From: an uncultured Candidatus Saccharibacteria bacterium | GTDB taxonomy: Bacteria; Patescibacteriota; Minisyncoccia; Phycocordibacterales; DATDWN01 | NCBI GenBank assembly: GCA_964552275.1 | Contig: CAZKFS010000001.1 | Span: forward strand, 1 to 35,433 | Direction of reading: 5' to 3' | DNA length: 35,433 nt | In this document: positions 13,725-32,287 of the stretch, in pieces | Layout of the letters: each line of letters begins with the position of its first letter | Numbering within the stretch: position 1 is the stretch's first letter | Notes under the pieces: model-generated | Database searches by the model: none | The model's input: only the letters and a program-made list of their open reading frames with translations | What the model was told of the DNA's origin: nothing | Program-made: the position numbers and the translations under genes

Positions 13725-13843
13725 CAGGATTTTTGTTCGAGTTCAAGGCTCGAGGTTTTGTTTCTGACCAAGCTGTACATTTAGTACTACGCGTGGAGGA
13801 AACAAAACCGAGAACGAAGAAATCGGACAAAAAGACGGTAGAT
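13725..13843 (-). repeat. ~120-nt intergenic element abutting the rpsN stop; homologous to 22088-22208
   Basis: Aligned by eye to the rpsJ 3' flank: shared aggatttttgtt, gaccaa, tgtaca..gtac, aaaaccgagaac and acaaaaagac blocks. Internal perfect 11-bp stem ggttttgtttc (13754-13764) / gaaacaaaacc (13799-13809). Confidence 0.75.
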
Positions 13844-14159: not shown

Positions 14160-14172
14160 CGTATACGACGAT

Positions 14173-14199
14173 GCCCGGGATCCTCTCGGTATCCCGGGC
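14173..14199 (-). other. perfect 9-bp GC-rich inverted repeat 3' of the orphan ORF (possible terminator, no U tract)
   Basis: gcccgggat - 9 nt - atcccgggc, starting 14 nt after the ORF stop codon. Confidence 0.5.
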
Positions 14200-14212
14200 A
14201 CAGGTCAGGTGG

Positions 14213-14575
14213 TCAGCACGTACCCCAGGTGAAGACTGTGGCAGACTCCAGATCGGAGTAGGTCCTCTGAATCGAGAACCTCTTTCCGAGCCTCACGACC
14301 CTCAAGACCACCGATGAATTACTATCGATGCTCTGAAGGAGGAAATCGGCGAGTTTCACCTGGGCGGCGAGCGAAAACTCGCCGAAGGTGTCATGAATAT
14401 CCTTCCTGGTTGTCTGGAAGGTGACATAGTTCTCACCCACCCTGATGTAGGTGTGGTAGAGTCTAGACCTACTTGTGAGATCCAGACCATTCAACTCCTC
14501 ATGGACAATGTAAAGCGGGTTCCTATGGTCCTCATGTCGAACCACAGGAAGAACGACTTCTCTTACTTTTTCCAT
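14213..14575 (-). CDS. orphan hypothetical protein (120 aa) in a G+C-rich insert between rplE and rpsN
   Basis: ATG at 14573-14575 is preceded by AGGTGG with a 5-nt spacer, so the track's longer start at 14638 is less likely. I recognise no family motif. I counted 33/60 G+C in 14221-14280. Confidence 0.6.
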   Translation of the reverse strand: MEKVREVVLPVVRHEDHRNPLYIVHEELNGLDLTSRSRLYHTYIRVGENYVTFQTTRKDIHDTFGEFSLAAQVKLADFLLQSIDSNSSVVLRVVRLGKRFSIQRTYSDLESATVFTWGTC

Positions 14576-14652
14576 TTTGACCACCTGTTTTGCAGAACTT
14601 ATGGCACGTCGCAGCCATTTGTCTGCGAAAAAGAACATGCGACGTTTCTATA

Positions 14653-18379: not shown

Positions 18380-18475
18380 TTTAATTTGTTGAAAACAAAA
18401 ACCACATTGTTAGTGGTACTGACTAGCTAATACCTCAAACAGAATGTATAAGACGTGTAGTCTTACGTGGCGTCT

Positions 18476-18504
18476 ATACTATACAAAATGCCTCAGAATG
18501 TCAA
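18476..18504 (-). promoter_or_regulatory. promoter TTGACA-17-TAGTAT upstream of rpsS
   Basis: Minus strand ttgacattctgaggcattttgtatagtat. It lies directly downstream of the UUCG-loop terminator of the RNA candidate. Confidence 0.55.
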
Positions 18505-18520
18505 CACATTTAATCAATGT

Positions 18521-18748
18521 AAGGAAAAGGCCTCCCGAAGGAGGCCGTGTTGGAGGGAGAGGGCCTAGAGCACCCCTGCGCCATGGGTGGTAGTCGCCCA
18601 AGGTAACTAGTATTTACCGGATTTTCGCAGTGCCCCAATCGACACAAGGACCATAGTTTTTCACTCTTTCATCAAACGAGTTGCAACTCGCTGAATCCCC
18701 AAGCGTTGCGGTCTGGTCCAAGGATGTTGCCACCACCTCTCCCCCAAA
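18521..18748 (-). ncRNA. unclassified G+C-rich structured RNA candidate (~225 nt) between rplB and rpsS
   Basis: No ORF longer than about 24 codons on either strand. Closing helix gggagagg (18555-18562) pairs with cctctccc (18736-18743). Second helix GGUGG/CCACC. Internal hairpins include CGAGU-UGCA-ACUCG. The minus-strand 3' end is GGCCUCC-UUCG-GGAGGCC plus UUUUCCUU (18521-18546). I counted 41/60 G+C in 18541-18600. Class unknown. Confidence 0.5.
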
Positions 18749-18785
18749 ATAAGACTATACTTTTTAATACATAAGTCAATTAAAC

Positions 18786-18816
18786 AAAAACACCGTTCGA
18801 GTTCGAACGGTGTTTT
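18786..18816. terminator. strong bidirectional terminator directly after the rplB stop
   Basis: aaaaacaccgttcga-gt-tcgaacggtgttttt, a perfect 11-bp stem with flanking A and T runs. Confidence 0.8.
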
Positions 18817-18821
18817 TGTTT

Positions 18822-20695: not shown

Positions 20696-21307
20696 TTATC
20701 CGTTTAGTTCAACTAGAGTTCCTCGTCTTCCAGATATAGCACCTCGTACAAAAATCTCTCCAGTTTCTGGTTTAACAGAAACAACAGTTAGACCTTTAGT
20801 TGTGATCCTATCACCACCCATTCTTCCGGCCATTCTCTTGCCTTTTGCAACACGACCTCCATCTCTACCTCCTCCACCAATAGAACCTGGCTCACGCTCT
20901 GAGTGCTTCTGTCCGTGTGAACGAGGTCCACCTTTGAATCCATGTCTTTTGACAGTACCTTGAAAGCCCTTACCTTTTGATAGTGAAGATGCAGTTATCA
21001 TATCTCCAGCTGAAAATGTAGAAAGATCAATACTATCTCCAACTTTAAATGCAGGTTCGCCCTCTGTTCTAAATTCTCTGAGGTACATGTAGTTACCACC
21101 CTTCATCTGACCTTTCTGCGCCTTGTTAATATTTTTCTCTGCTCTCTCTCCAAAACCAACTTGAACAGCATTGTAACCATCTGTAGAAACAGTTTTGATA
21201 GCAGTAACAACCATAGGTCCAGCTTTTATAGCTGTGACAGGATGAACAACCCCTTTGTCGTCAAAGATTTGGGTCATATTTAGTTTTGTTCCTAAAATAA
21301 ATTTCAT
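20696..21307 (-). CDS. rplC: 50S ribosomal protein L3
   Basis: I chose the start at MKFILGTKLNMTQIFD (ATG 21305-21307). The 23 residues upstream in the track are probably leader read-through. FKGGPRSHGQ motif. Confidence 0.9.
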   Translation of the reverse strand: MKFILGTKLNMTQIFDDKGVVHPVTAIKAGPMVVTAIKTVSTDGYNAVQVGFGERAEKNINKAQKGQMKGGNYMYLREFRTEGEPAFKVGDSIDLSTFSAGDMITASSLSKGKGFQGTVKRHGFKGGPRSHGQKHSEREPGSIGGGGRDGGRVAKGKRMAGRMGGDRITTKGLTVVSVKPETGEIFVRGAISGRRGTLVELNG

Positions 21308-21391
21308 ATTATTTTGATTTCTTGGAAACATTTTTCGGACAGTAATGAGAAAAGTGTTTTTCCCAACATTGCCCATCGCTAGTCTCCTGAA

Positions 21392-21425
21392 TCCGCCTCT
21401 TCGGCGGACCCGCCGACGAGGCGGG
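21392..21425 (-). promoter_or_regulatory. two tandem GC-rich hairpins in the rplC 5' leader
   Basis: tccgcc-tcttc-ggcgga (21392-21408) and cccgcc-gacga-ggcggg (21409-21425), each a 6-bp stem with a 5-nt loop. Confidence 0.45.
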
Positions 21426-21449
21426 AAAGTCCATTTGAAAGACTTGACT

Positions 21450-21478
21450 ACATTAGCAGATATCGGTTTTTAATTCAA
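21450..21478 (-). promoter_or_regulatory. promoter module copy 2: TTGAAT-17-(TGc)TAATGT, upstream of rplC
   Basis: Minus strand ttgaattaaaaaccgatatctgctaatgt, similar to copies 1 and 3. Confidence 0.55.
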
Positions 21479-21545
21479 GTCCTTTTAAAATAAATAAAAA
21501 AAACCGTGAATCAGGCAGAAGCCAACCCATAGGTTTTGTGTGGTC

Positions 21546-21579
21546 CCGCGGGCTGGTGGGGTGCTCCCACCGCCCGCGG
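21546..21579 (-). other. 14-bp GC-rich hairpin 3' of the secreted-protein ORF (terminator-like, no U tract)
   Basis: ccgcgggc(t)ggtggg - gtgct - cccaccgcccgcgg. Confidence 0.5.
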
Positions 21580-21610
21580 TCATATGTGTTCTCGGTGGGG
21601 ACTTGAAGGA

Positions 21611-21970
21611 TCAGCCCACCGCGAACGAGCCCGTCGTGTTCGAGGTGCCAATCGCACCAACCCAGGCCGGCGCCGAGGAGTGTTGTCTGTCTCCCAGGCC
21701 GACGGTGTTGTTGGGGCGTATCGACATGTCGGCGATGGTGTCGACTTCCGGAAGGGCGTCCTCGTAGGTGTTGATCGAGTGTTGAACAGTAAATCCTGGC
21801 ATGACGACTTCCATCAAGGAGGGTTCCACCTGGACATCCTCCTCGATCATCGTCACGCTGCCGACCGCGATGGTGACGATGTTGTGCTTGTTGTCATCGA
21901 CCTTCTGGACCGGTGACGACGGAAGGAGCAGCGCGAACACCGCCCCGAGTAGAACCAAGAGCTTCCTCAT
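21611..21970 (-). CDS. small secreted hypothetical protein (119 aa) in a high-G+C insert between rpsJ and rplC
   Basis: AGGAGG lies 4 nt upstream of the ATG. Signal peptide MRKLLVLLGAVFALLLPSS. Third codon positions are visibly G/C-rich. I counted 43/60 G+C in 21541-21600 (3' hairpin region just outside the ORF) and 41/60 in 21661-21720 (inside the ORF). Confidence 0.65.
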   Translation of the reverse strand: MRKLLVLLGAVFALLLPSSPVQKVDDNKHNIVTIAVGSVTMIEEDVQVEPSLMEVVMPGFTVQHSINTYEDALPEVDTIADMSIRPNNTVGLGDRQHSSAPAWVGAIGTSNTTGSFAVG

Positions 21971-22051
21971 GAGTCCTCCTAATAGTTAGAACGAATGGTC
22001 ACCAGACCACCCTATTTCCTATGGTATAACAACAAATATTTAAGTGCAAAC

Positions 22052-22077
22052 AAAAAACCACCTCTCGGTGGTTTTTT
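22052..22077. terminator. terminator aaaaaaccacc-tctc-ggtggtttttt
   Basis: Same hairpin family as 23022-23047 and 34410-35. It lies after the rpsJ 3' element. Confidence 0.75.
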
Positions 22078-22087
22078 GTTTATTTCT

Positions 22088-22208
22088 GAGGATTTTTGTT
22101 GAAGTTCGAAGTTCGCAGTTTTTATGTACGACCAAAATGTACAAAAGTACATTGCGGGAGTAGATAAAACCGAGAACAAAGAAATTCTACAAAAAGACCG
22201 GAAATAAC
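22088..22208 (-). repeat. ~120-nt intergenic element abutting the rpsJ stop; homologous to 13725-13843
   Basis: See the 13725-13843 feature. Inner perfect hairpin aatgtac-aaaa-gtacatt (22136-22153). Outer stem gtttttat / ataaaac at the position equivalent to the 11-bp stem of the other copy. Confidence 0.75.
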
Positions 22209-22598
22209 TTAGATGATTTTTACGTCGATATTAACCCCTGACGGAAGTGACATGTTTGTCAGAGCTTCCATTATCTTTGGTGTAGGGTTTAGGATATCGA
22301 TTACTCTTTTGTGAGTTCTCATTTCAAACTGCTCACGAGCATTTTTGAAAACGAAAGCAGATCGGTTTACTGTATATTTCTTTATTTCTGTAGGAAGAGG
22401 AATAGGTCCTTCTACTTTTGCATCATATCGAAGAGCTGTATCTATAATCTGCTTTACAGACAAATCAAGAATCTTGTATTCATAAGCACGAACGCGAATT
22501 CTGAGCTTTGAAATAACATCTGATTTAGCTGCCTTTGGAGCAGCTTTTGCTGTAGTCTTTTTTACAGATGCCTTTTTAGTTGTTTCCTTTGCAGTCAT
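22209..22598 (-). CDS. rpsJ: 30S ribosomal protein S10 (about 30-aa Lys/Ala-rich N-terminal extension)
   Basis: LRIRVRAYEYKILDLSVKQIIDTA core and position ahead of rplC. Confidence 0.95.
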   Translation of the reverse strand: MTAKETTKKASVKKTTAKAAPKAAKSDVISKLRIRVRAYEYKILDLSVKQIIDTALRYDAKVEGPIPLPTEIKKYTVNRSAFVFKNAREQFEMRTHKRVIDILNPTPKIMEALTNMSLPSGVNIDVKII

Positions 22599-23004: not shown

Positions 23005-23021
23005 ATGTAAAATATCATTTC

Positions 23022-23047
23022 AAAAAACCACCTTTCGGTGGTTTTTT
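23022..23047. terminator. terminator aaaaaaccacc-tttc-ggtggtttttt after tuf
   Basis: Perfect 5-bp GC core extended by A/T runs. Confidence 0.75.
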
Positions 23048-23090
23048 GAAAACTTTTTAAAGTTAAGAATTCTTCTTGAAAGGGCTGTGA

Positions 23091-24462: not shown

Positions 24463-24762
24463 CTAAGAAACTGGCATATATAGATCTTCTCTCAATTTTC
24501 TCATCTCATCTTTTATCAACAACTCCAATGTAGGGATTTTTGTCCTCAAAAACAACATCACATCCTGTACTGTGGTCGCATCTTTGTCCAATATACCATC
24601 TAGTTCGTCCTCCTCTTTATCAGACAAGAAATCCAGAGACCTGACTAGGATCGCTTGGTATAGCATAGTGCCCAGACGGTCCATTATCTCAAACCTCTTC
24701 TTCTCCGGAAGAGATTCCAGGCCCCAATCTTTTATTAGATCTTTTGATAAAATGTCGTTCAT
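24463..24762 (-). CDS. small acidic helical hypothetical protein (99 aa)
   Basis: ORF track. It starts 5 nt after the upstream 756-aa gene and has native AT-rich composition. I recognise no motif with certainty. Confidence 0.6.
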   Translation of the reverse strand: MNDILSKDLIKDWGLESLPEKKRFEIMDRLGTMLYQAILVRSLDFLSDKEEDELDGILDKDATTVQDVMLFLRTKIPTLELLIKDEMRKLREDLYMPVS

Positions 24763-24767
24763 AATAT

Positions 24768-27038
24768 TTAGACTTTTTTATTTATCCTATCTAATTCCCT
24801 TACAGCTAACTTAAAAGCCTCCTCTTCATCTGTTCCCAAGAACCATGAACCCTTGAACTCTGGCTTTACTGACAACTTTCCACCCACAGGGCCTCCTCCT
24901 ATCTCTCTACCATTCAAAACTATTCTAAAAGCATCAGAGTCTCTAATAACTTTTATTTCACCAGACTCGTACGGTATTCTATGAAAAACTTCACTCTTCA
25001 TAAAATCACCTTCTTCACTATGCATTATTCCAGAAAACTTCTTTATATTTCCAGTAGAAACATCATATAAAACATCTTTACTACCATCCAATTTTTCATA
25101 TACAACGTTTCCTTCTTCGGTAACAACCAAACTCTCCCCTTTAAAACCGACACCACTCAATTTTTTGGCTGGGTTATAAAAACCAAAAGTCTCAGCCAAA
25201 TATTCTGTTGGAATATCTATAATGTTGGTTTTTATTTTTTCAGGAATATTATTCGCAGAACCATAATTCTGCTTAATCTTTTCCTTGAGCTCATCTAGAG
25301 TTTTTATAAAACCTTTGGGAGAAACCTCTACTCTGTTTTCTGTTTTTTTAGTTTCAGCACTGTCTTTCAGTTCTACATCAGAAACTGCAGTTCCTTTGCC
25401 CGACAACCCATCCAGCATATTCAAATCTGGTGAGCCAGCATTATTTGGAGTCAAACCAAGAATAGCTGTAACTGCAAGTATATGAGCAGTTCTTGGAATA
25501 AGAGACAGTTTTTTAAAACTTTTTGCTATAATCCTCTGCTCAACTGGTTTTCTCTGCTCAAGCATCTCTTTTTCCAAAATATTGCGCTCTTCTTCAACCT
25601 CTTCCAGAAGTTTGACGTTCACCTCATAAGTTTCCATGTTGCTAAGTCCGATCAAAGATCCTGGTTGATTGTCCTCCCTAAATCTAGTCTCTGTAGGTAG
25701 TTTGTGTATACCCAAAGCTTTTATCTTTGCTTGGTGAGCTTCTCTGTACTTTGTCTCAGCGAGATCTATCTCTTTATTAAAAATTTCCAAAGAAACTGGT
25801 TTTGTTACACCCAAATCTGAAAAGATTCTACCTATAACATTTTGTCTTTCACGAATTTTATTTCTATGTTGAAAATATTGACTTACATATTCTGTACGAG
25901 CCTCAACCAGCCTAGCCTCTACAGCTTCTAAGGCATCCTCAGCCTTACTCTCTACAACTTCATCTGTGACGACAGCTTCTTTTTTTTCTGTGACAAAATC
26001 ATCAACCTTACTCTCCACAACTTTCTCACCATTTTTTTTCTTTAATTCTACTTTTTCTTCTTCTCGTAACTCAGTCTCCAACCTTAGTACTTCGGCTTCG
26101 TCTCTATATTTTTCTGCAACCGCAATACGATCCCTGAGCTCAGCTATTCTACCTGTATATTTTGGTTTAGTAGGTTCATTATCTTCCTCAGGCTTTGCTT
26201 CTTTTTTAGAAGAACCTTCCTGTTCCGCTAAACGCAATTCATTTTCCAAGCGTAAAACTTCTTCTTCATCATCTTTTGCCTCTGCTTTTTTAATTAGCTT
26301 TCTGAGCCCTACTACTCTATCTGTCTTTTCTGGTTTATCCAAAGAAACTTCAGGTGAAACTTCATCATCTTCCACTGGAAAATCTTCAGCAACTACTTCA
26401 TCTTGATGAGTATCTTCAAAACCCAAAATTTCCAATAATTCTTCATAATCTCCTCTTATCTTCGAAAGAGCTCCCTTCTTTTTTGATAACTTATCTATGA
26501 TCATTCTTGCTTCATCTTTAGTTTCTGCATGTGTTAAATCCCACTTAGCATCCCTGAGAGAAGTCTTTATAGAGTGGTTACCTTCAGTGCTTATGAGTCC
26601 ATTCAGATAGTTGATCGCTCCTTTTCTAGCTTTTGGTGACAAGTCTAAAACTTTAAAGTCTGACTCGACTTTTTCTGGTTCTGGTATTTTTTCTGGTTGC
26701 ACTTCAACAACTGGGGCTGGTTCACCAACCTCTTCCTCACTAATAAAATCACCAGACTCTTCTGCTGTTACGGGTTCTTCAGATTTTTTATCATCATCAA
26801 ATGATAATATTTTGTCTCCATCTTCAGCATCAAACTCACTTAAATAATCTTCTTCATCATCTATAATTACTCCATCCCTATCAACTCTCTCCATAATTCT
26901 AATAGGCACGTGACGACCACCTTCTCTTTGAGAGTCTAAAATGGAATGTCTGTTGTGTTCTGGCACAACATATTCAGGATTTATTTGTCCGTATTGAACT
27001 CTTCTTTCTTTTCCCCCAGATTCAATAGTAGTGTGCAT
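24768..27038 (-). CDS. large acidic coiled-coil protein with one TM segment (756 aa), unknown function
   Basis: Very high E/D/K content. Internal repeat EVLRLENELR / EVLRLETELR. Hydrophobic segment AHILAVTAILGLT. The C-terminal ~200 aa are less biased. Confidence 0.65.
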   Translation of the reverse strand: MHTTIESGGKERRVQYGQINPEYVVPEHNRHSILDSQREGGRHVPIRIMERVDRDGVIIDDEEDYLSEFDAEDGDKILSFDDDKKSEEPVTAEESGDFISEEEVGEPAPVVEVQPEKIPEPEKVESDFKVLDLSPKARKGAINYLNGLISTEGNHSIKTSLRDAKWDLTHAETKDEARMIIDKLSKKKGALSKIRGDYEELLEILGFEDTHQDEVVAEDFPVEDDEVSPEVSLDKPEKTDRVVGLRKLIKKAEAKDDEEEVLRLENELRLAEQEGSSKKEAKPEEDNEPTKPKYTGRIAELRDRIAVAEKYRDEAEVLRLETELREEEKVELKKKNGEKVVESKVDDFVTEKKEAVVTDEVVESKAEDALEAVEARLVEARTEYVSQYFQHRNKIRERQNVIGRIFSDLGVTKPVSLEIFNKEIDLAETKYREAHQAKIKALGIHKLPTETRFREDNQPGSLIGLSNMETYEVNVKLLEEVEEERNILEKEMLEQRKPVEQRIIAKSFKKLSLIPRTAHILAVTAILGLTPNNAGSPDLNMLDGLSGKGTAVSDVELKDSAETKKTENRVEVSPKGFIKTLDELKEKIKQNYGSANNIPEKIKTNIIDIPTEYLAETFGFYNPAKKLSGVGFKGESLVVTEEGNVVYEKLDGSKDVLYDVSTGNIKKFSGIMHSEEGDFMKSEVFHRIPYESGEIKVIRDSDAFRIVLNGREIGGGPVGGKLSVKPEFKGSWFLGTDEEEAFKLAVRELDRINKKV

Positions 27039-27159
27039 ATGAATATATTGTATCGCTTTTAAAAATACTGCGCAATAAAAAATTGCTAGGTTAAAACAAA
27101 ATTGTCACCAGAACCACCAAAGAAAGTAATTTGATTGGATGAAATGCGACGTGAGAAAA

Positions 27160-27208
27160 CAAAAAACACCCGGAGGTGTACATGTAGTACATTGACGGGT
27201 GTTTTTTG
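27160..27208. terminator. terminator after fusA with a TGTAC-core inner hairpin
   Basis: acacccg (27166-27172) / cgggtgt (27196-27202) encloses gtgtacatgtagtacat and is flanked by A and T runs. Confidence 0.7.
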
Positions 27209-27237
27209 TTTTGGGAACGAGTAGTTCGCCAATAAAA

Positions 27238-29379
27238 TTACTTTCTTGATTCCACTATTGTTTTCTCAATATTTGGTGGCACCACCTCATAATGATCAAA
27301 CTCCATCATTATACTTCCTCTTCCTTGAGTCATTGATCTTATATCTGTTGTATAACCAAACATTTCAGATAGTGGAACTTTTGCGTGAATAACTCGGAGC
27401 ATTCCTCTCTCATCCATACCTTCTATTTGACCACGTTTACCAGAAAGTGAACCTGTTATATCTCCCATGAACTGTTCTGGCATTATAGCTTCAACTTTCA
27501 TAATAGGCTCTAGAATAACTGGCTTTGCTCTCTTGGCTGCGTCTTGGAAAGCTTGCGATGCTGCGATTTTATAAGCGATTTCAGATGAGTCCACGTCGTG
27601 ATAAGAACCAAAAGTAAGTTCACAAGAAATATTTACCATTTTGTATCCAGCGACTATACCTCTATCCATTGCTTCGTGAACACCTTTTTCAACTGCAGGA
27701 ATAAACTCTTGTGGAATAACACCTCCTTTGATTGAATCGATGAATTCGAAGTCTTCATATCGATGAACGTTCTTTGGAATTTTTGCACCTTCTTCCAATT
27801 TCTCTAGAGGTTTGATAGTAAGCTTTACGTGACCGTACTGACCCTTACCTCCAGTTTGTTTTATGTATTTGTGTTCAGCGTCAGCAGATGCCAAGATAGT
27901 TTCTCTGTATGCTACTTGTGGTTTACCGACATTTACTTCCACACCGAACTCTCTTTTCATACGATCCACCATGATTTCAAGATGTAGTTCTCCCATTCCA
28001 GAAATAATACTTTCACCGGTATCAGTGTTTGATGAAATAATGAAAGTTGGATCCTCATCAGAAAGTTTTTTCATGGCCATACCCATTTTCTCTTGGTCAG
28101 CTTTTGTTTTTGGTTCTATTCTTAGAGACACCACTGGATCAACGAACTTGATAGGGTCAAGCAAAATAGGGTTACTCTCATCACAAAATGTATGTGATGT
28201 TTTTGCAGACTTTAGTCCCACAGCTGCTGCTATTTCTCCAGCAAAAACTTTCTTTACCTCTTCACGTTTGTCAGCCTGAAGTCTTACTATACGTCCCAGT
28301 CTTTCTTTTTCACCTGTTGTTGAGTTATATATATATGAACCAGCTTCTATTGTTCCAGAGTAAACTCTAAAGAATGTTAGCTGTCCCACGAATGGATCGT
28401 TTTGAAGTTTGAAAGCAAGAGCAGAAAAAGGCTCAGTATCAGAAGCTTTTCTATAAATTTCTTCGTTTGTTTTTGGATCAAGTCCGTGAACTGGAGGAAT
28501 ATCTAGTGGAGATGGTAGATAATCAACCACGCCATCTAGAACCAACTGAACACCTTTGTTTTTCAAAGCTGAACCAGCAAATACTGGGATGATTTTTACA
28601 GCGAGAGAAGCGGCTCTCAAAGTTGCTTTCAAAACATCGTATGATGGCTCTTTGCCTTCTAGATAACCCGCCATCAAAGCATCGTCTTGCTCAACGATTT
28701 TCTCCACAAGTTCTGCTCGATATTTCTTGGCCTCATCCAAATATTCTGCAGGTATTTCCTCTTCACGAATACTCATACCCATATTTCCTTCGAAATAAAA
28801 GGCTTTCATTTTCATTAGATCGATAACTCCTTCGAACTTATCTTCTAGTCCCATTGGGATTTGCACACGAACTGCATTTTTATTTAGTCGGTCTAGAATA
28901 GATGCGTATGAACGCTCAAAAGATGCTCCTGTTCTATCTAGTTTGTTGATAAAACAAATTCTTGGAACATTTCCATCGTCTGCGTATCTCCAGTTTGTTT
29001 CTGATTGAGGTTCTACACCAGCAACTCCATCGAAAACCACAACCGCACCGTCCAAAACTCTAAGAGATCTTTTCACTTCAGCTGTAAAGTCGATGTGACC
29101 AGGAGTATCGATAACGTTGAAACGATATTCTGGTTTTTGGCCTCTTGGCATATATGTAGGGTTCCAGAAACATGTAATAGCCGCTGCTGTAATAGTGATA
29201 CCACGTTCTCGCTCTTGCTCCATCCAGTCTGTAACTGTTGCACCGTCATGCACCTCACCTATTTTGTGAGTCATTCCTGTGTAGAACAAAACGCGCTCTG
29301 ATGTTGTTGTTTTACCAGCATCAATGTGAGCTATAATACCGAAGTTTCTAACCTTATCTAATGTATAATCGCGGTTCAT
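27238..29379 (-). CDS. fusA: elongation factor G
   Basis: [23 protein letters not shown] motifs; 713 aa. Confidence 0.97.
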
Positions 29380-29545
29380 AAATAATTGATAATTTCTATT
29401 AAGTTAAATAAAAAAGCCCTTAGGCGTCAAGGAAAACTATATACCAAAAGCCCTTTTTGAGCAATGACTATATAATCAATATCTAAGGTGTCAGAAATCA
29501 CCAAACTCGTCGAATCCACAACTTTTTTCATCACCAGCAAGATAC

Positions 29546-32287
29546 CTATTTCTTGTACTTCTTCAAAATGTTAGCTTCGATTTCTGCCCTATCCCCTCCA
29601 TAAGTCATATAGGAAAGTTGTTTTAAGTTTTCAATAATAGCAGGGTTGCCTTTTGGTGCTGGTTCAGCTTTCATATTAAATGCTTTTGCTGGTCTTCCAC
29701 CTACGAGCATTTTTACAATAGCATTGTAGTTATCAATACTCATTATATCTTTAGCGGTAAATACGGGACTGAACTGTTTCTCTAAATACTCAGCATCTTC
29801 TGCTCCAACTCGGTAAGAAATAATAGAGCCCACGTTACCAAACACAGCATCTCGAATGTCATCTTGCAATTGAGCGATAAACTGATGCGCAATATTTAGA
29901 GATAGTTTATATTTTCTAGCTTCAGACAAAATAGTGGCTATAGAATTTGTGGTTATATTTTGAAACTCATCTATATATAGATAAAATGGCGGGAAATCCT
30001 TACCTATTGAATCCACTCTAGAAAGAGCTGCCATCAAAATCTTTCCTACTAGGATAAGACCTATAAGGTTGGCGTTAATATCTCCCAATCTTCCTTTAGA
30101 TAGATTGACCAGAAGAATCTTCTTTTCATCCATTATTTGTCGGAAATTGAAAGATGATTTTTCTTGAGCAATAATAGGTCGCATAATATCGTTAGCCAAA
30201 AACACATCAAATTTTGAAGTTATATATGGAACAATGTTAGCAAGTGACGCCTCCCCTCCAGCTTTTTCTGCAACCTCTGTCCAGAACTGATAAACAACAG
30301 GGTTTTTACATTTCGACAACTTCATCATTCTGAATTCTTTATTTGTCATCACCCTAGAAACATCGAGAAGAGTGCACCCTGAATCTGGATCTTCTATTAC
30401 AAGCATTGTCGCATTACGAAAATACTGTTCAAACATTGGCCCTAGAGATTCTGGCACACCACCATAAAGTTTTTGGAATATGCTAAACAATTCATTGACC
30501 ACAAAAGTTTTTTGTTCTGGGAATCTTGGATCGTACTCCAGCATATTAAGAGCCATCGGTCTGTCTGTATAACTAGGATCAAAATATATAACATCTGTTA
30601 ACCTCTCCTGTGGAATATTCGAGAGTATATCCAAAACATCAGAACCATGAGGATCGATAAAACAAGCACCGAGTCCCGCCTTTATATCCTGAACTATCAT
30701 GTTTTTTAGCAAAGTTGTTTTACCTGTACCAGTTTGTCCGATAGTGTAGGTGTGTCTGAGTCTGTCTTCGTCCTGCATATATATAGGTGTATCGACATTA
30801 CGATAAGAATTCACCCCAAGTCTAGTGCCAGATCCCACCATATCAGATGGGGCTGGCGCAGAAACAGATTGTGTTTGTTTTAGTTGAGGTGTCGGTGAAA
30901 GTGCTGTTGTGTGGAAATGAATCAGGGTTGTAAATTCATGGAGGTTGAGTGGCAAAACCTTTGCGGAATCATAAGTTCTAAAAGAAAAATCTCTTAGCAT
31001 TTTATTTAGAGCACTCTTCTCTAACCTTCTAGGTCTTAGGCCTGTTGAAGCAGAATCAGTGAACTGATTGAAGCTTGATTCCAAACTGGTGAGTATCCTC
31101 TCTGCATCAGGGCGACTTTGTGCCGATGCAACCAGACGAATATTTGTAGCAACAATAGTACTGGATATTTTTTGTTTTATTTTTTGTATTGCCTCACTAT
31201 CGATAGGCTTTTTCTCCTCATCTGGTTTTGGAGCTGATTTAAAGAGAGAAGACAAAGTTTTGCCCAGTTCTCCACCAAAAGTCTCTGGAATATCTATGGC
31301 CTCCTTTGTTGGTATACCTTTTTCTATTTTTTCAATAGCGTATTCATATTTTTTATTATAATAATCACCTCTTGGAGAGAAAATTATTTGAATACCGGCT
31401 CCCTCCCCCTCTTTTTGTATTTTAGAAAAACTATTCAATATAACGTTGAGTGGATCATGATCAAAAGACTCATATGTTTTTATTTGATAGATAGGATTGT
31501 TACTAGATTCTAGATATGAACCTATAGAAACTCCGTCACTGTTAAAAATATTGTAGTCCGAAGTAGTTTCAGTTAACTTGGCGTTGTGAAAAACTGATAT
31601 CATCTGTCTCTCAAACAAATCTTTGTGTAGGTTAGGTACGGCAACATAGAAAACAAACTGGTCGCTTCCGTTTGGGTTAGCGATCTCGAGAACAATATAA
31701 TTCTCTCTATAATTCTTCGTACTATCTTTTGACACAACCGAAAGCATGCCGGCCAAAAACTGCTCCATACTCGAAACCACCTCCTTTAGACTCTTTGTTT
31801 TTTCTTGACCTTTGTCTTCAGGCAAAATCACCTCGTACAATGCCATGTCGAGACCCATGAATTCCTTACTCCTCACATCAATATCTTTACCCTTATAACC
31901 ATTTTTTAAGTATTGAACTAAGAATCTATGAAAATCGTCTTCTAGGTGAGGATCTTTGAAACCGGATATAACTGACATTGTGTTTTTTATACCATTTTCG
32001 TTTAGAACAACGAGAAGTTCTGTCATCTTTTTATCGTGAGTTTCTGGAGCAAGGTTTAATATAATAGTCTCAGCGTCATGTTTAGCTATTGCATAAGTCT
32101 CATCTAAAACCTCCTTTGGTAACACATCCCTATAACGAGATATTTCTTCTCCTACAACTTGATCAAGTTTTACATCAAAACTCTTTTCTCTATACTCTGC
32201 TTCTTTTTGGGAAATCTTTTCTCTCAGAAAAGCGATTTCTTGTTCTGGGCTAGTAAACTGAGGTAGTGTCTCTGCATTTTTTTCCAT
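29546..32287 (-). CDS. TraD/VirD4 (type IV coupling protein)-like or HerA/FtsK-superfamily P-loop ATPase with a large unassigned N-terminal domain
   Basis: Walker A GQTGTGKTT, then FIDPHGSD. Walker B LYIDEFQN. ARKYKLSLNIAHQFIAQL. No obvious TM helix in the first ~480 aa. Confidence 0.65.
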   Translation of the reverse strand: MEKNAETLPQFTSPEQEIAFLREKISQKEAEYREKSFDVKLDQVVGEEISRYRDVLPKEVLDETYAIAKHDAETIILNLAPETHDKKMTELLVVLNENGIKNTMSVISGFKDPHLEDDFHRFLVQYLKNGYKGKDIDVRSKEFMGLDMALYEVILPEDKGQEKTKSLKEVVSSMEQFLAGMLSVVSKDSTKNYRENYIVLEIANPNGSDQFVFYVAVPNLHKDLFERQMISVFHNAKLTETTSDYNIFNSDGVSIGSYLESSNNPIYQIKTYESFDHDPLNVILNSFSKIQKEGEGAGIQIIFSPRGDYYNKKYEYAIEKIEKGIPTKEAIDIPETFGGELGKTLSSLFKSAPKPDEEKKPIDSEAIQKIKQKISSTIVATNIRLVASAQSRPDAERILTSLESSFNQFTDSASTGLRPRRLEKSALNKMLRDFSFRTYDSAKVLPLNLHEFTTLIHFHTTALSPTPQLKQTQSVSAPAPSDMVGSGTRLGVNSYRNVDTPIYMQDEDRLRHTYTIGQTGTGKTTLLKNMIVQDIKAGLGACFIDPHGSDVLDILSNIPQERLTDVIYFDPSYTDRPMALNMLEYDPRFPEQKTFVVNELFSIFQKLYGGVPESLGPMFEQYFRNATMLVIEDPDSGCTLLDVSRVMTNKEFRMMKLSKCKNPVVYQFWTEVAEKAGGEASLANIVPYITSKFDVFLANDIMRPIIAQEKSSFNFRQIMDEKKILLVNLSKGRLGDINANLIGLILVGKILMAALSRVDSIGKDFPPFYLYIDEFQNITTNSIATILSEARKYKLSLNIAHQFIAQLQDDIRDAVFGNVGSIISYRVGAEDAEYLEKQFSPVFTAKDIMSIDNYNAIVKMLVGGRPAKAFNMKAEPAPKGNPAIIENLKQLSYMTYGGDRAEIEANILKKYKK

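What the first reader, a model, noticed from the sequence alone, without database searches (positions are those of the whole stretch)
21527..22050. High-G+C, GC3-rich secreted 119-aa protein gene inserted between rpsJ and rplC
S10 and L3 are normally contiguous. Here a minus-strand ORF (21611-21970) has AGGAGG 4 nt before the ATG and a classic signal peptide (MRKLLVLLGAVFALLLPSS).
The region is roughly two thirds G+C: 41/60 in 21661-21720 inside the ORF and 43/60 in 21541-21600 over its 3' hairpin. The bias concentrates at third codon positions, which is typical of genuine coding sequence evolved in a high-GC genome.
The ORF is followed by a 14-bp GC hairpin (21546-21579).
Weak imperfect inverted repeats flank the segment: ccatagg-n6-gtggtc at 21527-21545 and its complement gaccac-n7-cctatgg at 22005-22024. 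They may mark insert boundaries, but 13 matched bases could be chance.
In a CPR-like episymbiont, a recently acquired secreted protein placed in the most highly expressed locus is a plausible host-interaction factor. That is inference.
Basis: partly seen in the sequence, partly recalled or inferred. Interest (0 to 1): 0.65.

Follow-up and report, generated by a model that had tools for sequence, protein, structure and literature searches.

The report
Foreign orphan gene in ribosomal cluster
A small, complete gene with the base composition and translation signal of a different, G+C-rich organism sits in a gap between two ribosomal-protein genes of a tiny-genome (CPR/Paceibacteria) bacterium; the gap is a recurrent landing place for stray genes in this lineage, and what the gene does is unknown.

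Summary
The minus-strand ORF 21611-21970 (119 aa) has GC1/2/3 of 0.58/0.41/0.80, against GC3 of about 0.25 in host genes. It has AGGAGG 4 nt before the ATG, an N-terminal hydrophobic helix, and a 14-bp GC hairpin (-31.7 kcal/mol).

The junctions are identical in six independent assemblies, so this is not a chimera. The protein has no real homolog in about 15 billion proteins, or in phage, plasmid, viral, metagenome and PDB searches.

The flanking inverted repeats are at chance level.

In this Paceibacteria lineage rpsJ ends in its own terminator. rplC has its own conserved promoter and structured leader. The space between them is a hypervariable slot: over 400 nt in 22% of 130 relatives, with nearly all cargo unique, including ParE/RelE and HicAB modules.

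None of 39 host genes has a Shine-Dalgarno motif, so the cassette brought its own.

Verdict: a recently acquired foreign orphan cassette in an inter-operon hotspot. It is not embedded in the operon. It probably encodes a small acidic exported or membrane-anchored protein. Expression and the proposed host-interaction role are untested.

The parts
22209..22598 (-). rpsJ (ribosomal protein S10), the upstream flank of the slot
   Evidence: Pfam Ribosomal_S10, E=1.9e-31
22080..22207 (-). About 125-nt imperfect palindromic (MITE-like) repeat directly after rpsJ. A second copy lies at 13726-13840 after rpsN, and one lies at the same place in relative L009.
   Evidence: blastn: 76% identity to the second copy, and 71% self-match to its own reverse complement. 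Fold of -37.9 kcal/mol, z=-8.2.
22048..22081 (-). rpsJ intrinsic (bidirectional-type) terminator AAACAAAAAACCACC-GAGA-GGTGGTTTTTTGTTT. It is conserved in relatives and nearly identical to the tuf terminator at 23018-23051.
   Evidence: Perfect 15-nt arms. Fold of -21.5 kcal/mol, z=-7.6. Aligned in L008, L012, L019 and L009. tuf copy found. The consensus scanner missed it because the A/T runs extend the stem.
21506..22024 (-). Compositionally foreign segment of about 520 bp, 50-77% G+C in 30-nt bins, against 38.6% for the window. The boundaries are approximate.
   Evidence: 30-nt G+C profile. It is the only region of 200 nt or more in the window with 100-nt G+C of 0.55 or higher.
21975..21980 (-). 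Shine-Dalgarno AGGAGG, 4 nt upstream of the ATG. It is the only SD motif among about 40 genes in the window.
21611..21970 (-). ORF119. It has an N-terminal signal or anchor sequence (MRK + LLVLLGAVFALLL + PSS). The mature part is acidic (pI about 4.3), has no Cys, and has a Gly/Ser/Thr-rich C-terminus. It is an ORFan.
   Evidence: coding signal; no real homologs; AF2 confident only for helix 3-15
21546..21579 (-). G+C-rich hairpin 31 nt after the stop codon, with 14 pairs and no U-tract. It resembles a terminator of a high-G+C organism.
   Evidence: Fold of -31.7 kcal/mol, z=-5.3
21496..21535 (-). Second, weaker hairpin followed by U8, a host-type intrinsic-terminator candidate.
   Evidence: Fold of -12.9 kcal/mol, z=-3.2
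21450..21479 (-). rplC promoter: -35 cTTGAAT (21473-21479), 17-nt spacer, -10 TAATGT (21450-21455; TAGTAT in relatives)
   Evidence: Conserved in 13 aligned relatives. Coordinates. Function inferred from conservation and consensus.
21308..21445 (-). Conserved structured 5' leader of rplC. The window-specific 34-nt G+C palindrome insertion lies at 21392-21425.
   Evidence: RNAalifold: 19 pairs, 8 with compensatory changes. The insertion is absent from 12 relatives. It folds at -27 kcal/mol, z=-4.95.
20696..21307 (-). rplC (L3), the downstream flank. The real start is MKFILG at 21307, not the longer ORF start at 21376.
   Evidence: Pfam Ribosomal_L3. Start conserved in alignment A1.

Best explanation
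A single-gene piece of foreign DNA, about 0.5 kb, from a G+C-rich, SD-using organism was recently integrated into this Paceibacteria (CPR) genome. The piece carries its own SD, a 119-codon ORF and a G+C hairpin terminator.

It lies in the non-essential spacer between the rpsJ terminator and the rplC promoter and leader. That spacer is a lineage-wide hypervariable slot. In relatives it holds unrelated small cargo, including toxin-antitoxin pairs, mini zinc-finger ORFs and other orphans, many of them also SD-bearing and G+C-enriched.

Shown:
- foreign composition and a coding periodicity
- completeness of the cassette
- real junctions
- absence from relatives
- the terminator / slot / promoter architecture
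- hotspot behaviour of the slot

Inferred:
- DNA entered by uptake (natural competence has been demonstrated in CPR Saccharibacteria) and integrated by illegitimate or homology-facilitated recombination. There are no transposase or recombinase signatures.
- If transcribed, transcription comes from read-through of the rpsJ terminator or from a weak TTGCAC-17-TACCAT promoter.
- Transcripts end at the two hairpins before the rplC promoter.
- The product would be a small acidic protein exported by Sec or anchored by its N-terminal helix at the cell surface.

I put roughly even odds on whether it is expressed and useful or is a near-neutral passenger.
For: Composition and coding:
- GC3 is 0.80 against about 0.25 in host genes, with a classic G-rich position 1 and G-poor position 2.
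- Codons are GCG/GTC/TCG/CCG/ACC-biased.
- It is the only SD among about 40 genes in the window.
- Core translation genes of relatives carry a 5-mer SD in 6 of 428 cases, close to the 2.2% background frequency measured in slot sequence.
- A published analysis found the anti-SD motif in only 48% of Parcubacteria (PMC9297842).

Real insertion:
- Junctions are 100% identical in the MAG contig and in five per-run assemblies. Three of these (L002, L005, L006) cover the whole 580-nt insert query, from just after the rpsJ terminator into the rplC promoter region, in one contig.

Absence elsewhere:
- No real homolog in the 5.8-billion cluster search or the 1.84-billion representative search. The three weak hits in the latter are eukaryotic repeat proteins.
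- Nothing in plasmids or phages, JGI metagenomes, IMG/VR, PDB, or Pfam, NCBIfam, PHROGs and PADLOC.

Architecture and hotspot:
- The terminator, empty sites in L008 and L016, and the promoter and leader are all conserved.
- The S10|L3 gap exceeds 400 nt in 22% of 130 relatives, against 0-2% for L3|L4, L4|L23 and L23|L2.
- 33 slots of 300 nt or more fall into 24 tblastx clusters, 21 of them singletons.
- Cargo includes ParE/RelE and HicA/HicB.
- Slot ORFs of relatives carry a 5-mer SD in 11 of 49 cases against 6 of 428 core genes (p=3.5e-8). The SD-bearing ones have higher GC3 (p=7e-4).

Other:
- Natural competence plus homologous recombination in CPR (PMC10633639).
- N-terminal helix 3-15 at pLDDT about 80.
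Against: - No donor or homolog was found, so foreignness rests on composition, the SD and phyletic absence alone.
- No expression data exist.
- The host appears not to use SD, and no host-type promoter precedes the ORF (0 promoter calls). The best hand-found candidate matches only 8 of 12 positions.
- The signal peptide was judged by inspection and by an AF2 helix, not by SignalP. The cleavage site is poor (LPS|S).
- Everything after residue 18 is unpredicted (pLDDT below 50).
- All six assemblies come from one sampling project, so population-level presence/absence is unknown.
- The integration mechanism is pure inference. There is no target-site duplication or clear microhomology, only a T-rich 15/21 direct repeat.
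Confidence: 0.72

Rival explanations
1. The segment is a silent passenger. The foreign gene is intact only because it arrived recently. It is not transcribed or translated usefully in this SD-less host and will decay.
For: - No host-type promoter.
- It lies behind a strong terminator.
- Host genes lack SD, and anti-SD is often missing in Parcubacteria.
- Codon usage is opposite to the host's.
- Slot cargo across relatives is almost all unique, as expected for fast turnover.
Against: - The ORF is intact, with a start codon, a signal-like N-terminus and a stop.
- It is identical in six assemblies, although those may all represent one population.
- The AU-containing 5' UTR could still allow SD-independent initiation.
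Confidence: 0.4
2. The segment is a small non-autonomous transposable element (MITE/IS-derived) bounded by the terminal inverted repeats CCATAGG-n6-GTGGTC / GACCAC-n7-CCTATGG and carrying a passenger ORF.
For: The two motifs sit close to the composition boundaries. A different, MITE-like palindromic repeat does exist in this genome.
Against: - The inverted-repeat score is reached in 5% of shuffles and in 12.5% of genomic pairs.
- The repeat finder did not report it.
- There is no target-site duplication.
- There is no second copy in the window or in 160 related loci.
- No transposase is present.
- The left half-site is explained as part of a terminator stem.
Confidence: 0.05
3. Assembly or binning artefact: a high-G+C read cluster from another organism was spliced into a low-G+C contig.
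For: There is an abrupt G+C change, and there are no homologs anywhere.
Against: - Five per-run Logan assemblies and the MAG give identical sequence.
- Single contigs (L002, L005, L006) cover the entire insert query from just after the rpsJ terminator into the rplC promoter region, and L002 also carries the complete rpsJ gene upstream.
- Both flanks match the conserved terminator and promoter of relatives exactly where an insertion is expected.
Confidence: 0.03
4. The gene is native and lineage-specific, and its unusual composition comes from selection or local mutation bias. It would be a normal part of the r-protein region.
For: Other gaps of the same cluster also hold orphan ORFs, for example ORF141 with GC3 of 0.62.
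Against: - GC3 of 0.80 is far outside the host range.
- It has the only SD in the window.
- It is absent from every relative, including empty-site genomes L008 and L016.
- It has a terminator hairpin typical of G+C-rich organisms.
Confidence: 0.03

Closest known systems
Chromosomal integration hotspots or 'islets' flanked by core genes (the concept of Oliveira, Touchon & Rocha 2017; cited from my own knowledge, not checked here)
   Same: The variable accessory content sits between two highly conserved core genes. Content differs between related genomes. Typical mobile cargo such as type II toxin-antitoxin modules is present.
   Different: The slot is tiny (0-2 kb, one to four small genes). It lies inside the universally conserved S10-spc ribosomal cluster, at a terminator/promoter boundary. 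No integrase, tRNA or att site is evident.
Compositionally atypical 'alien' ORFan genes acquired by horizontal transfer (the amelioration framework of Lawrence & Ochman; cited from my own knowledge)
   Same: The G+C and GC3 are far from the host's, there is no amelioration, the gene is absent from relatives, and the ORF is short with no homologs.
   Different: The transfer also imported a translation signal (SD) that the recipient lineage does not appear to use. No donor could be named.
Integron gene cassette
   Same: It is a promoter-poor single ORF followed by an imperfect palindrome. It lies downstream of a strongly expressed unit, in an array-like variable position.
   Different: There are no attC core sites (RYYYAAC / GTTRRRY) around the hairpin, no integrase in the 35-kb window, and no cassette array (by inspection).
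MITE or IS-type element with terminal inverted repeats
   Same: A short segment has inverted motifs near its ends.
   Different: The repeats are at chance level. There is no target-site duplication, no other copy and no transposase.
E. coli-type S10 operon (rpsJ-rplC-rplD..., one transcript, with the L4-controlled leader upstream of rpsJ; established knowledge)
   Same: The gene order S10-L3-L4-L23-L2-S19-L22-S3 is kept.
   Different: Here rpsJ is a separate unit with its own terminator. The conserved promoter and structured leader sit in front of rplC. The 'insertion into the operon' is therefore an insertion between two operons.

Membership tests
Horizontally acquired (alien) gene | Base composition and codon usage far from the recipient genome | tested here: met
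   G+C is 0.60 and GC3 is 0.80. The other 38 genes in the window have GC3 of 0.21-0.62, most about 0.25.
Horizontally acquired (alien) gene | Absent from close relatives at the orthologous position | tested here: met
   L008 and L016 have empty sites. Other relatives hold unrelated cargo. blastn and tblastx found no match in 160 loci.
Horizontally acquired (alien) gene | Homologs in an identifiable donor lineage | tested here: not met
   No true homolog was found in any protein or DNA collection searched.
Genuine protein-coding sequence | Period-3 composition in the proposed frame and strand | tested here: met
   Chi-square p=4.6e-9, and 0 of 20000 shuffles reach the observed gap. G1 is 0.39 and G2 is 0.12. 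The other frames have stops or shadow composition.
Sec-type secreted protein | N-terminal n-h-c signal peptide with a cleavage site | tested here: inconclusive
   MRK, a 13-residue hydrophobic core and PSS are seen by inspection. AF2 gives helix 3-15. No AxA-type site is present. SignalP is not available, so an uncleaved membrane anchor is equally possible.
Lipoprotein | Lipobox with an invariant Cys | tested here: not met
   The protein has no cysteine. The NCBIfam LP_plasma hit has E=0.47, below its cutoff.
MITE / IS transposable element | Terminal inverted repeats above chance | tested here: not met
   A Smith-Waterman score of 9 is reached in 5% of shuffles and in 12.5% of genomic pairs.
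MITE / IS transposable element | Target-site duplication, multiple copies, or a transposase | tested here: not met
   None was seen. No transposase ORF lies in the segment.
Integron gene cassette | attC with R''/R' core sites, and an integrase or attI nearby | tested here: not met
   Inspection of 21480-21625 shows no GTTRRRY / RYYYAAC pair. No integrase was found among the window ORFs examined.
Intrinsic terminator | G+C-rich hairpin immediately followed by a U-tract | tested here: inconclusive
   Hairpin 1 (21546-21579) is very stable but lacks a U-tract. Hairpin 2 (21496-21535) is weaker but is followed by U8. The consensus scanner called neither.
Core-gene-flanked integration hotspot | The same interval holds different accessory content in different genomes, more so than neighbouring intervals | tested here: met
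   22% of S10|L3 gaps exceed 400 nt, against 0-2% at three neighbouring junctions. There are 24 clusters among 33 slots. TA modules are present.

The most novel reading that the evidence does not exclude
The transcription-unit boundaries inside the Paceibacteria ribosomal-protein cluster (S10|L3, and apparently L2|S19 and L5|S14) may act as recurrent capture sites for foreign single-gene cassettes from SD-using, G+C-richer organisms, possibly the hosts or prey whose DNA these cells import.

In that reading the captured genes would be expressed by read-through from very strong r-protein promoters. This would be an integrase-less, integron-like 'gene nursery'. ORF119 would then be a newly recruited surface or secreted effector. 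The SD motifs, in a lineage that otherwise does not use them, would give the genes special (or no) translation.
Probability: 0.12. Interest if true: 0.7.

Novelty: new member of a known kind. Interest (0 to 1): 0.4.

Why it matters
ORF119 alone is an ordinary case of a horizontally acquired orphan gene.

The context is more useful. In Paceibacteria the 'universal' S10-spc cluster is cut into separate transcription units. The cuts are hypervariable slots. They collect toxin-antitoxin modules and small foreign genes that carry Shine-Dalgarno sites, in a lineage whose own genes lack them.

This gives a concrete, alignable locus for studying three things in CPR bacteria: how much foreign DNA they fix, where it comes from, and whether SD-dependent initiation still works.

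It is also a caution for phylogenomic and binning pipelines that assume the syntenic r-protein block is contiguous and compositionally uniform.

Tried and rejected
- Protein homology for ORF119 found only itself. This covered the 5.8-billion k-mer/HMMER search, the exhaustive phmmer search of 1.84 billion representatives, Pfam, NCBIfam, PHROGs and PADLOC, PDB sequences, tblastn against plasmids and phages, JGI metagenome contigs and IMG/VR.
- The three weak hits are eukaryotic tandem-repeat proteins with inflated scores. I rejected them.
- The opposite-strand 126-aa ORF also has no homolog.
- An exact search for the hairpin in viral contigs found nothing.
- AlphaFold2 without an alignment gave mean pLDDT of 43, with only the N-terminal helix confident. 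I therefore ran no fold search.
- Rfam found nothing at gathering thresholds for the whole window. With permissive E-values it found only terminator-like chance matches.
- The promoter/terminator scanner returned nothing for 21250-22250. It misses the obvious rpsJ terminator because the A/T tracts extend the stem.
- A closer sibling genome was sought through L3 in JGI metagenomes. The best hit was 81% identical, no closer than the GTDB representatives.
- A literature search for the assembly and run accessions found nothing, so the habitat is unknown.
- Considered and rejected: integron attC, lipoprotein, a REP-like family of G+C hairpins (no other copies), and terminal inverted repeats.

Full report
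**What is there**

The window (35,433 bp, 38.6% G+C) carries the str-S10-spc translation cluster on the minus strand. Between rpsJ (22209-22598) and rplC lies a 901-nt spacer.
- AGGAGG at 21975-21980, 4 nt before the ATG.
- A 14-pair hairpin at 21546-21579.

**Is it coding, and on which strand**

- G+C by codon position is 0.58/0.41/0.80. Chi-square gives p=4.6e-9, and no shuffle out of 20,000 reaches the GC3-GC2 gap.
- Position 1 is G-rich (0.39) and position 2 is G-poor (0.12), which is the normal signature of a sense strand.
- The plus-strand ORFs (126 and 75 aa) are shadow frames. They are interrupted elsewhere by stops or are Arg-rich. The 126-aa one has no homolog.
- ORF length alone would not be convincing at 60% G+C. 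The periodicity is what makes the case.

**Is it foreign**

- The 38 other genes of the window have GC3 of 0.21-0.62, mostly about 0.25.
- None of them has an SD-like motif upstream. ORF119 has the only one.
- In 160 related loci, core translation genes carry a 5-mer SD in 6 of 428 cases. That is close to the 2.2% background frequency measured in slot sequence.
- This fits a published report that the anti-SD motif is detectable in only 48% of Parcubacteria (PMC9297842).
- The codons are GCG/GTC/TCG/CCG/ACC/ATC/GAC/AAC-biased.
- The SD, the ORF and the U-tract-less G+C hairpin therefore all look imported together.

**Is it real**

The identical protein is encoded on the 167-kb MAG contig (GCA_021733565.1) and on five separately assembled per-run contigs (SRR10388235, 37, 40, 46, 48). 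Three of these (L002, L005, L006) cover the whole 580-nt insert query in one contig, from just after the rpsJ terminator into the rplC promoter region. L002 also carries the complete rpsJ gene upstream. All are 100% identical over the 580 nt. Chimerism is very unlikely, although read-level data could not be examined.

**Homology**

Nothing real was found:
- Only itself in the 5.8-billion-cluster search.
- In the exhaustive search of 1.84 billion representatives, itself plus three eukaryotic tandem-repeat proteins whose scores are repeat artefacts.
- No Pfam, NCBIfam, PHROG or PADLOC family.
- No PDB relative.
- No tblastn hit in plasmids, phages, JGI metagenomes or IMG/VR.

AlphaFold2 without an alignment is confident only for helix 3-15.

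**The flanking inverted repeats**

The motifs are at the stated positions, but the best local alignment of the two boundary zones scores 9. That is reached by 5% of shuffles and by 12.5% of equally spaced pairs of 60-mers in the window. The repeat finder does not list them. The left half-site is part of a second hairpin (21496-21535, -12.9 kcal/mol) that is followed by U8 and looks like a host-type terminator. There is no target-site duplication, no second copy and no transposase.

**Context changes the picture**

The organism is Paceibacteria/Zambryskibacteria-like. Aligning the spacer with close relatives shows a fixed frame:
- The rpsJ stop codon.
- In the window and L009, a 125-nt palindromic MITE-like repeat.
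- A conserved intrinsic terminator, AAAAAACCACC-n4-GGTGGTTTTTT (window 22048-22081). It is nearly identical to the tuf terminator at 23018-23051.
- A variable interval.
- A conserved promoter, cTTGAAT-17-TAGTAT (window 21450-21479).
- A conserved leader with two stems and compensatory changes in 8 of 19 pairs.
- rplC, starting at 21307.

L008 and L016 have the terminator abutting the promoter, so they are empty sites. ORF119 therefore lies between two transcription units, not inside an operon.

**The interval is a hotspot**

- Among 130 relatives the S10|L3 gap has a median of 102 nt. It exceeds 150 nt in 37% and exceeds 400 nt in 22%, with a maximum of 2.1 kb.
- L3|L4, L4|L23 and L23|L2 exceed 400 nt in only 0-2%.
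- The 33 slots of 300 nt or more fall into 24 tblastx clusters, 21 of them singletons.
- Recognisable cargo includes ParE/RelE-family toxins with partners, HicA/HicB, and small zinc-finger-like ORFs.
- Excluding the window, 11 of 49 slot ORFs have a 5-mer SD, against 6 of 428 core genes (Fisher p=3.5e-8).
- The SD-bearing slot ORFs have GC3 about 0.09 above their locus G+C, against -0.03 for the others (p=7e-4).

ORF119 is thus the most extreme example of a recurrent class: small, SD-bearing, G+C-richer genes deposited in this slot of SD-less genomes.

**How it most likely works**

Shown:
- A complete foreign cassette sits in a permissive inter-operon spacer.

Inferred:
- Entry was by DNA uptake. 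Natural competence and homologous recombination have been demonstrated in CPR Saccharibacteria (PMC10633639).
- Integration was by illegitimate or homology-facilitated recombination.
- Transcription, if any, comes from leakage through the rpsJ terminator or from a weak TTGCAC-17-TACCAT promoter. That candidate matches 8 of 12 positions, below the scanner's threshold.
- Termination occurs at the two hairpins.
- The product would have a positively charged N-terminus, a 13-residue hydrophobic core and an acidic (pI about 4.3), Cys-free, 100-residue remainder. That suggests a Sec-exported or N-terminally anchored surface protein.

Whether it is made at all is open. The host lacks SD usage and the codon usage is opposite to the host's. 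I rate 'expressed and functional' and 'silent recent passenger' as about equally likely.

**Comparison with known systems**

It behaves like cargo of a core-gene-flanked integration hotspot and like a classic un-ameliorated alien ORFan. It fails the tests for an IS/MITE, an integron cassette and a lipoprotein (see the membership table). Relative to the textbook S10 operon, this lineage has moved the promoter and leader from upstream of rpsJ to upstream of rplC.

**Verdict**

It is wrong about operon embedding and about the boundary repeats. The proposed host-interaction role is untested. This is a new member of a known kind. The hotspot and the SD contrast give it moderate interest.

Noticed in passing
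window 21308-21479 (-); L008, L009, L012-L017, L019, L023, L087, L093: rplC has its own conserved promoter (cTTGAAT-17-TAGTAT) and a conserved structured 5' leader. The leader has an outer 6-bp stem and a long inner hairpin, and 8 of 19 pairs show compensatory changes. It is a candidate ribosomal-protein autoregulatory leader with no Rfam match.
   Followed up: partly
window 21392-21425: A 34-nt G+C-rich palindrome (CCCGCC..GGCGGG / TCCGCC..GGCGGA; -27 kcal/mol) is inserted inside the rplC leader. It occurs only in this genome's population and is absent from 12 aligned relatives. No other copy exists in the window.
   Followed up: partly
window 22080-22207 and 13726-13840; L009 3371-3496: An imperfect palindromic repeat of about 125 nt (MITE-like; -38 kcal/mol, z of -8 and -5) sits directly after rpsJ and after rpsN. 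It is also present after rpsJ in relative L009.
   Followed up: partly
window 14213-14638 (-), hairpin about 14170-14200: A second orphan insert lies between rplE (L5) and rpsN (S14). It is a 141-aa ORF with G+C of 0.50 and GC3 of 0.62. It has its own TTGTAT-17-TATAAT promoter and a G+C hairpin. It has no Pfam or PADLOC hit and no homolog other than itself.
   Followed up: partly
window 18380-18821 (-): The L2|S19 gap (442 nt) holds the L2 terminator, a TTGACT-17-TATAGT promoter, a G+C-rich stretch of about 200 nt that ends in the terminator GGCCTCC-TTCG-GGAGGCC, and then a second promoter for rpsS. This may be a small RNA. The fold z-score is only -2.2, there is no Rfam hit, and there is no similarity in relatives.
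   Followed up: partly
L2|S19 junction in 26 related loci (e.g. L088, L092, L117): The L2|S19 gap is also long and variable in the wider lineage (median 585 nt, up to about 950 nt) with unrelated ORFs. It looks like a second variable slot in the cluster.
   Followed up: partly
whole window; 160 related loci: Host genes have no Shine-Dalgarno motifs (0 of 38 native genes in the window; 6 of 428 core genes in relatives). Many have a TATAAT-like box 10-25 nt before the ATG, which suggests very short leaders and SD-independent initiation.
   Followed up: partly
window 24463-32287 (-): The str cluster is interrupted as well. The order is S12-S7, then a 913-aa protein (DUF8128 / weak TraG-D_C hit), then EF-G, then a 756-aa and a 99-aa protein with no Pfam match, then EF-Tu.
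   Followed up: no
window 23018-23051 and 22048-22081: The tuf and rpsJ terminators are nearly identical (AAAAAACCACC-TTTC/TCTC-GGTGGTTTTTT). This makes rpsJ a monocistronic unit bracketed by the same terminator sequence.
   Followed up: no
window 20696-21376: The longest rplC ORF (226 aa, start 21376) over-extends into the leader. The conserved start is MKFILG at 21307 (203 aa).
   Followed up: yes
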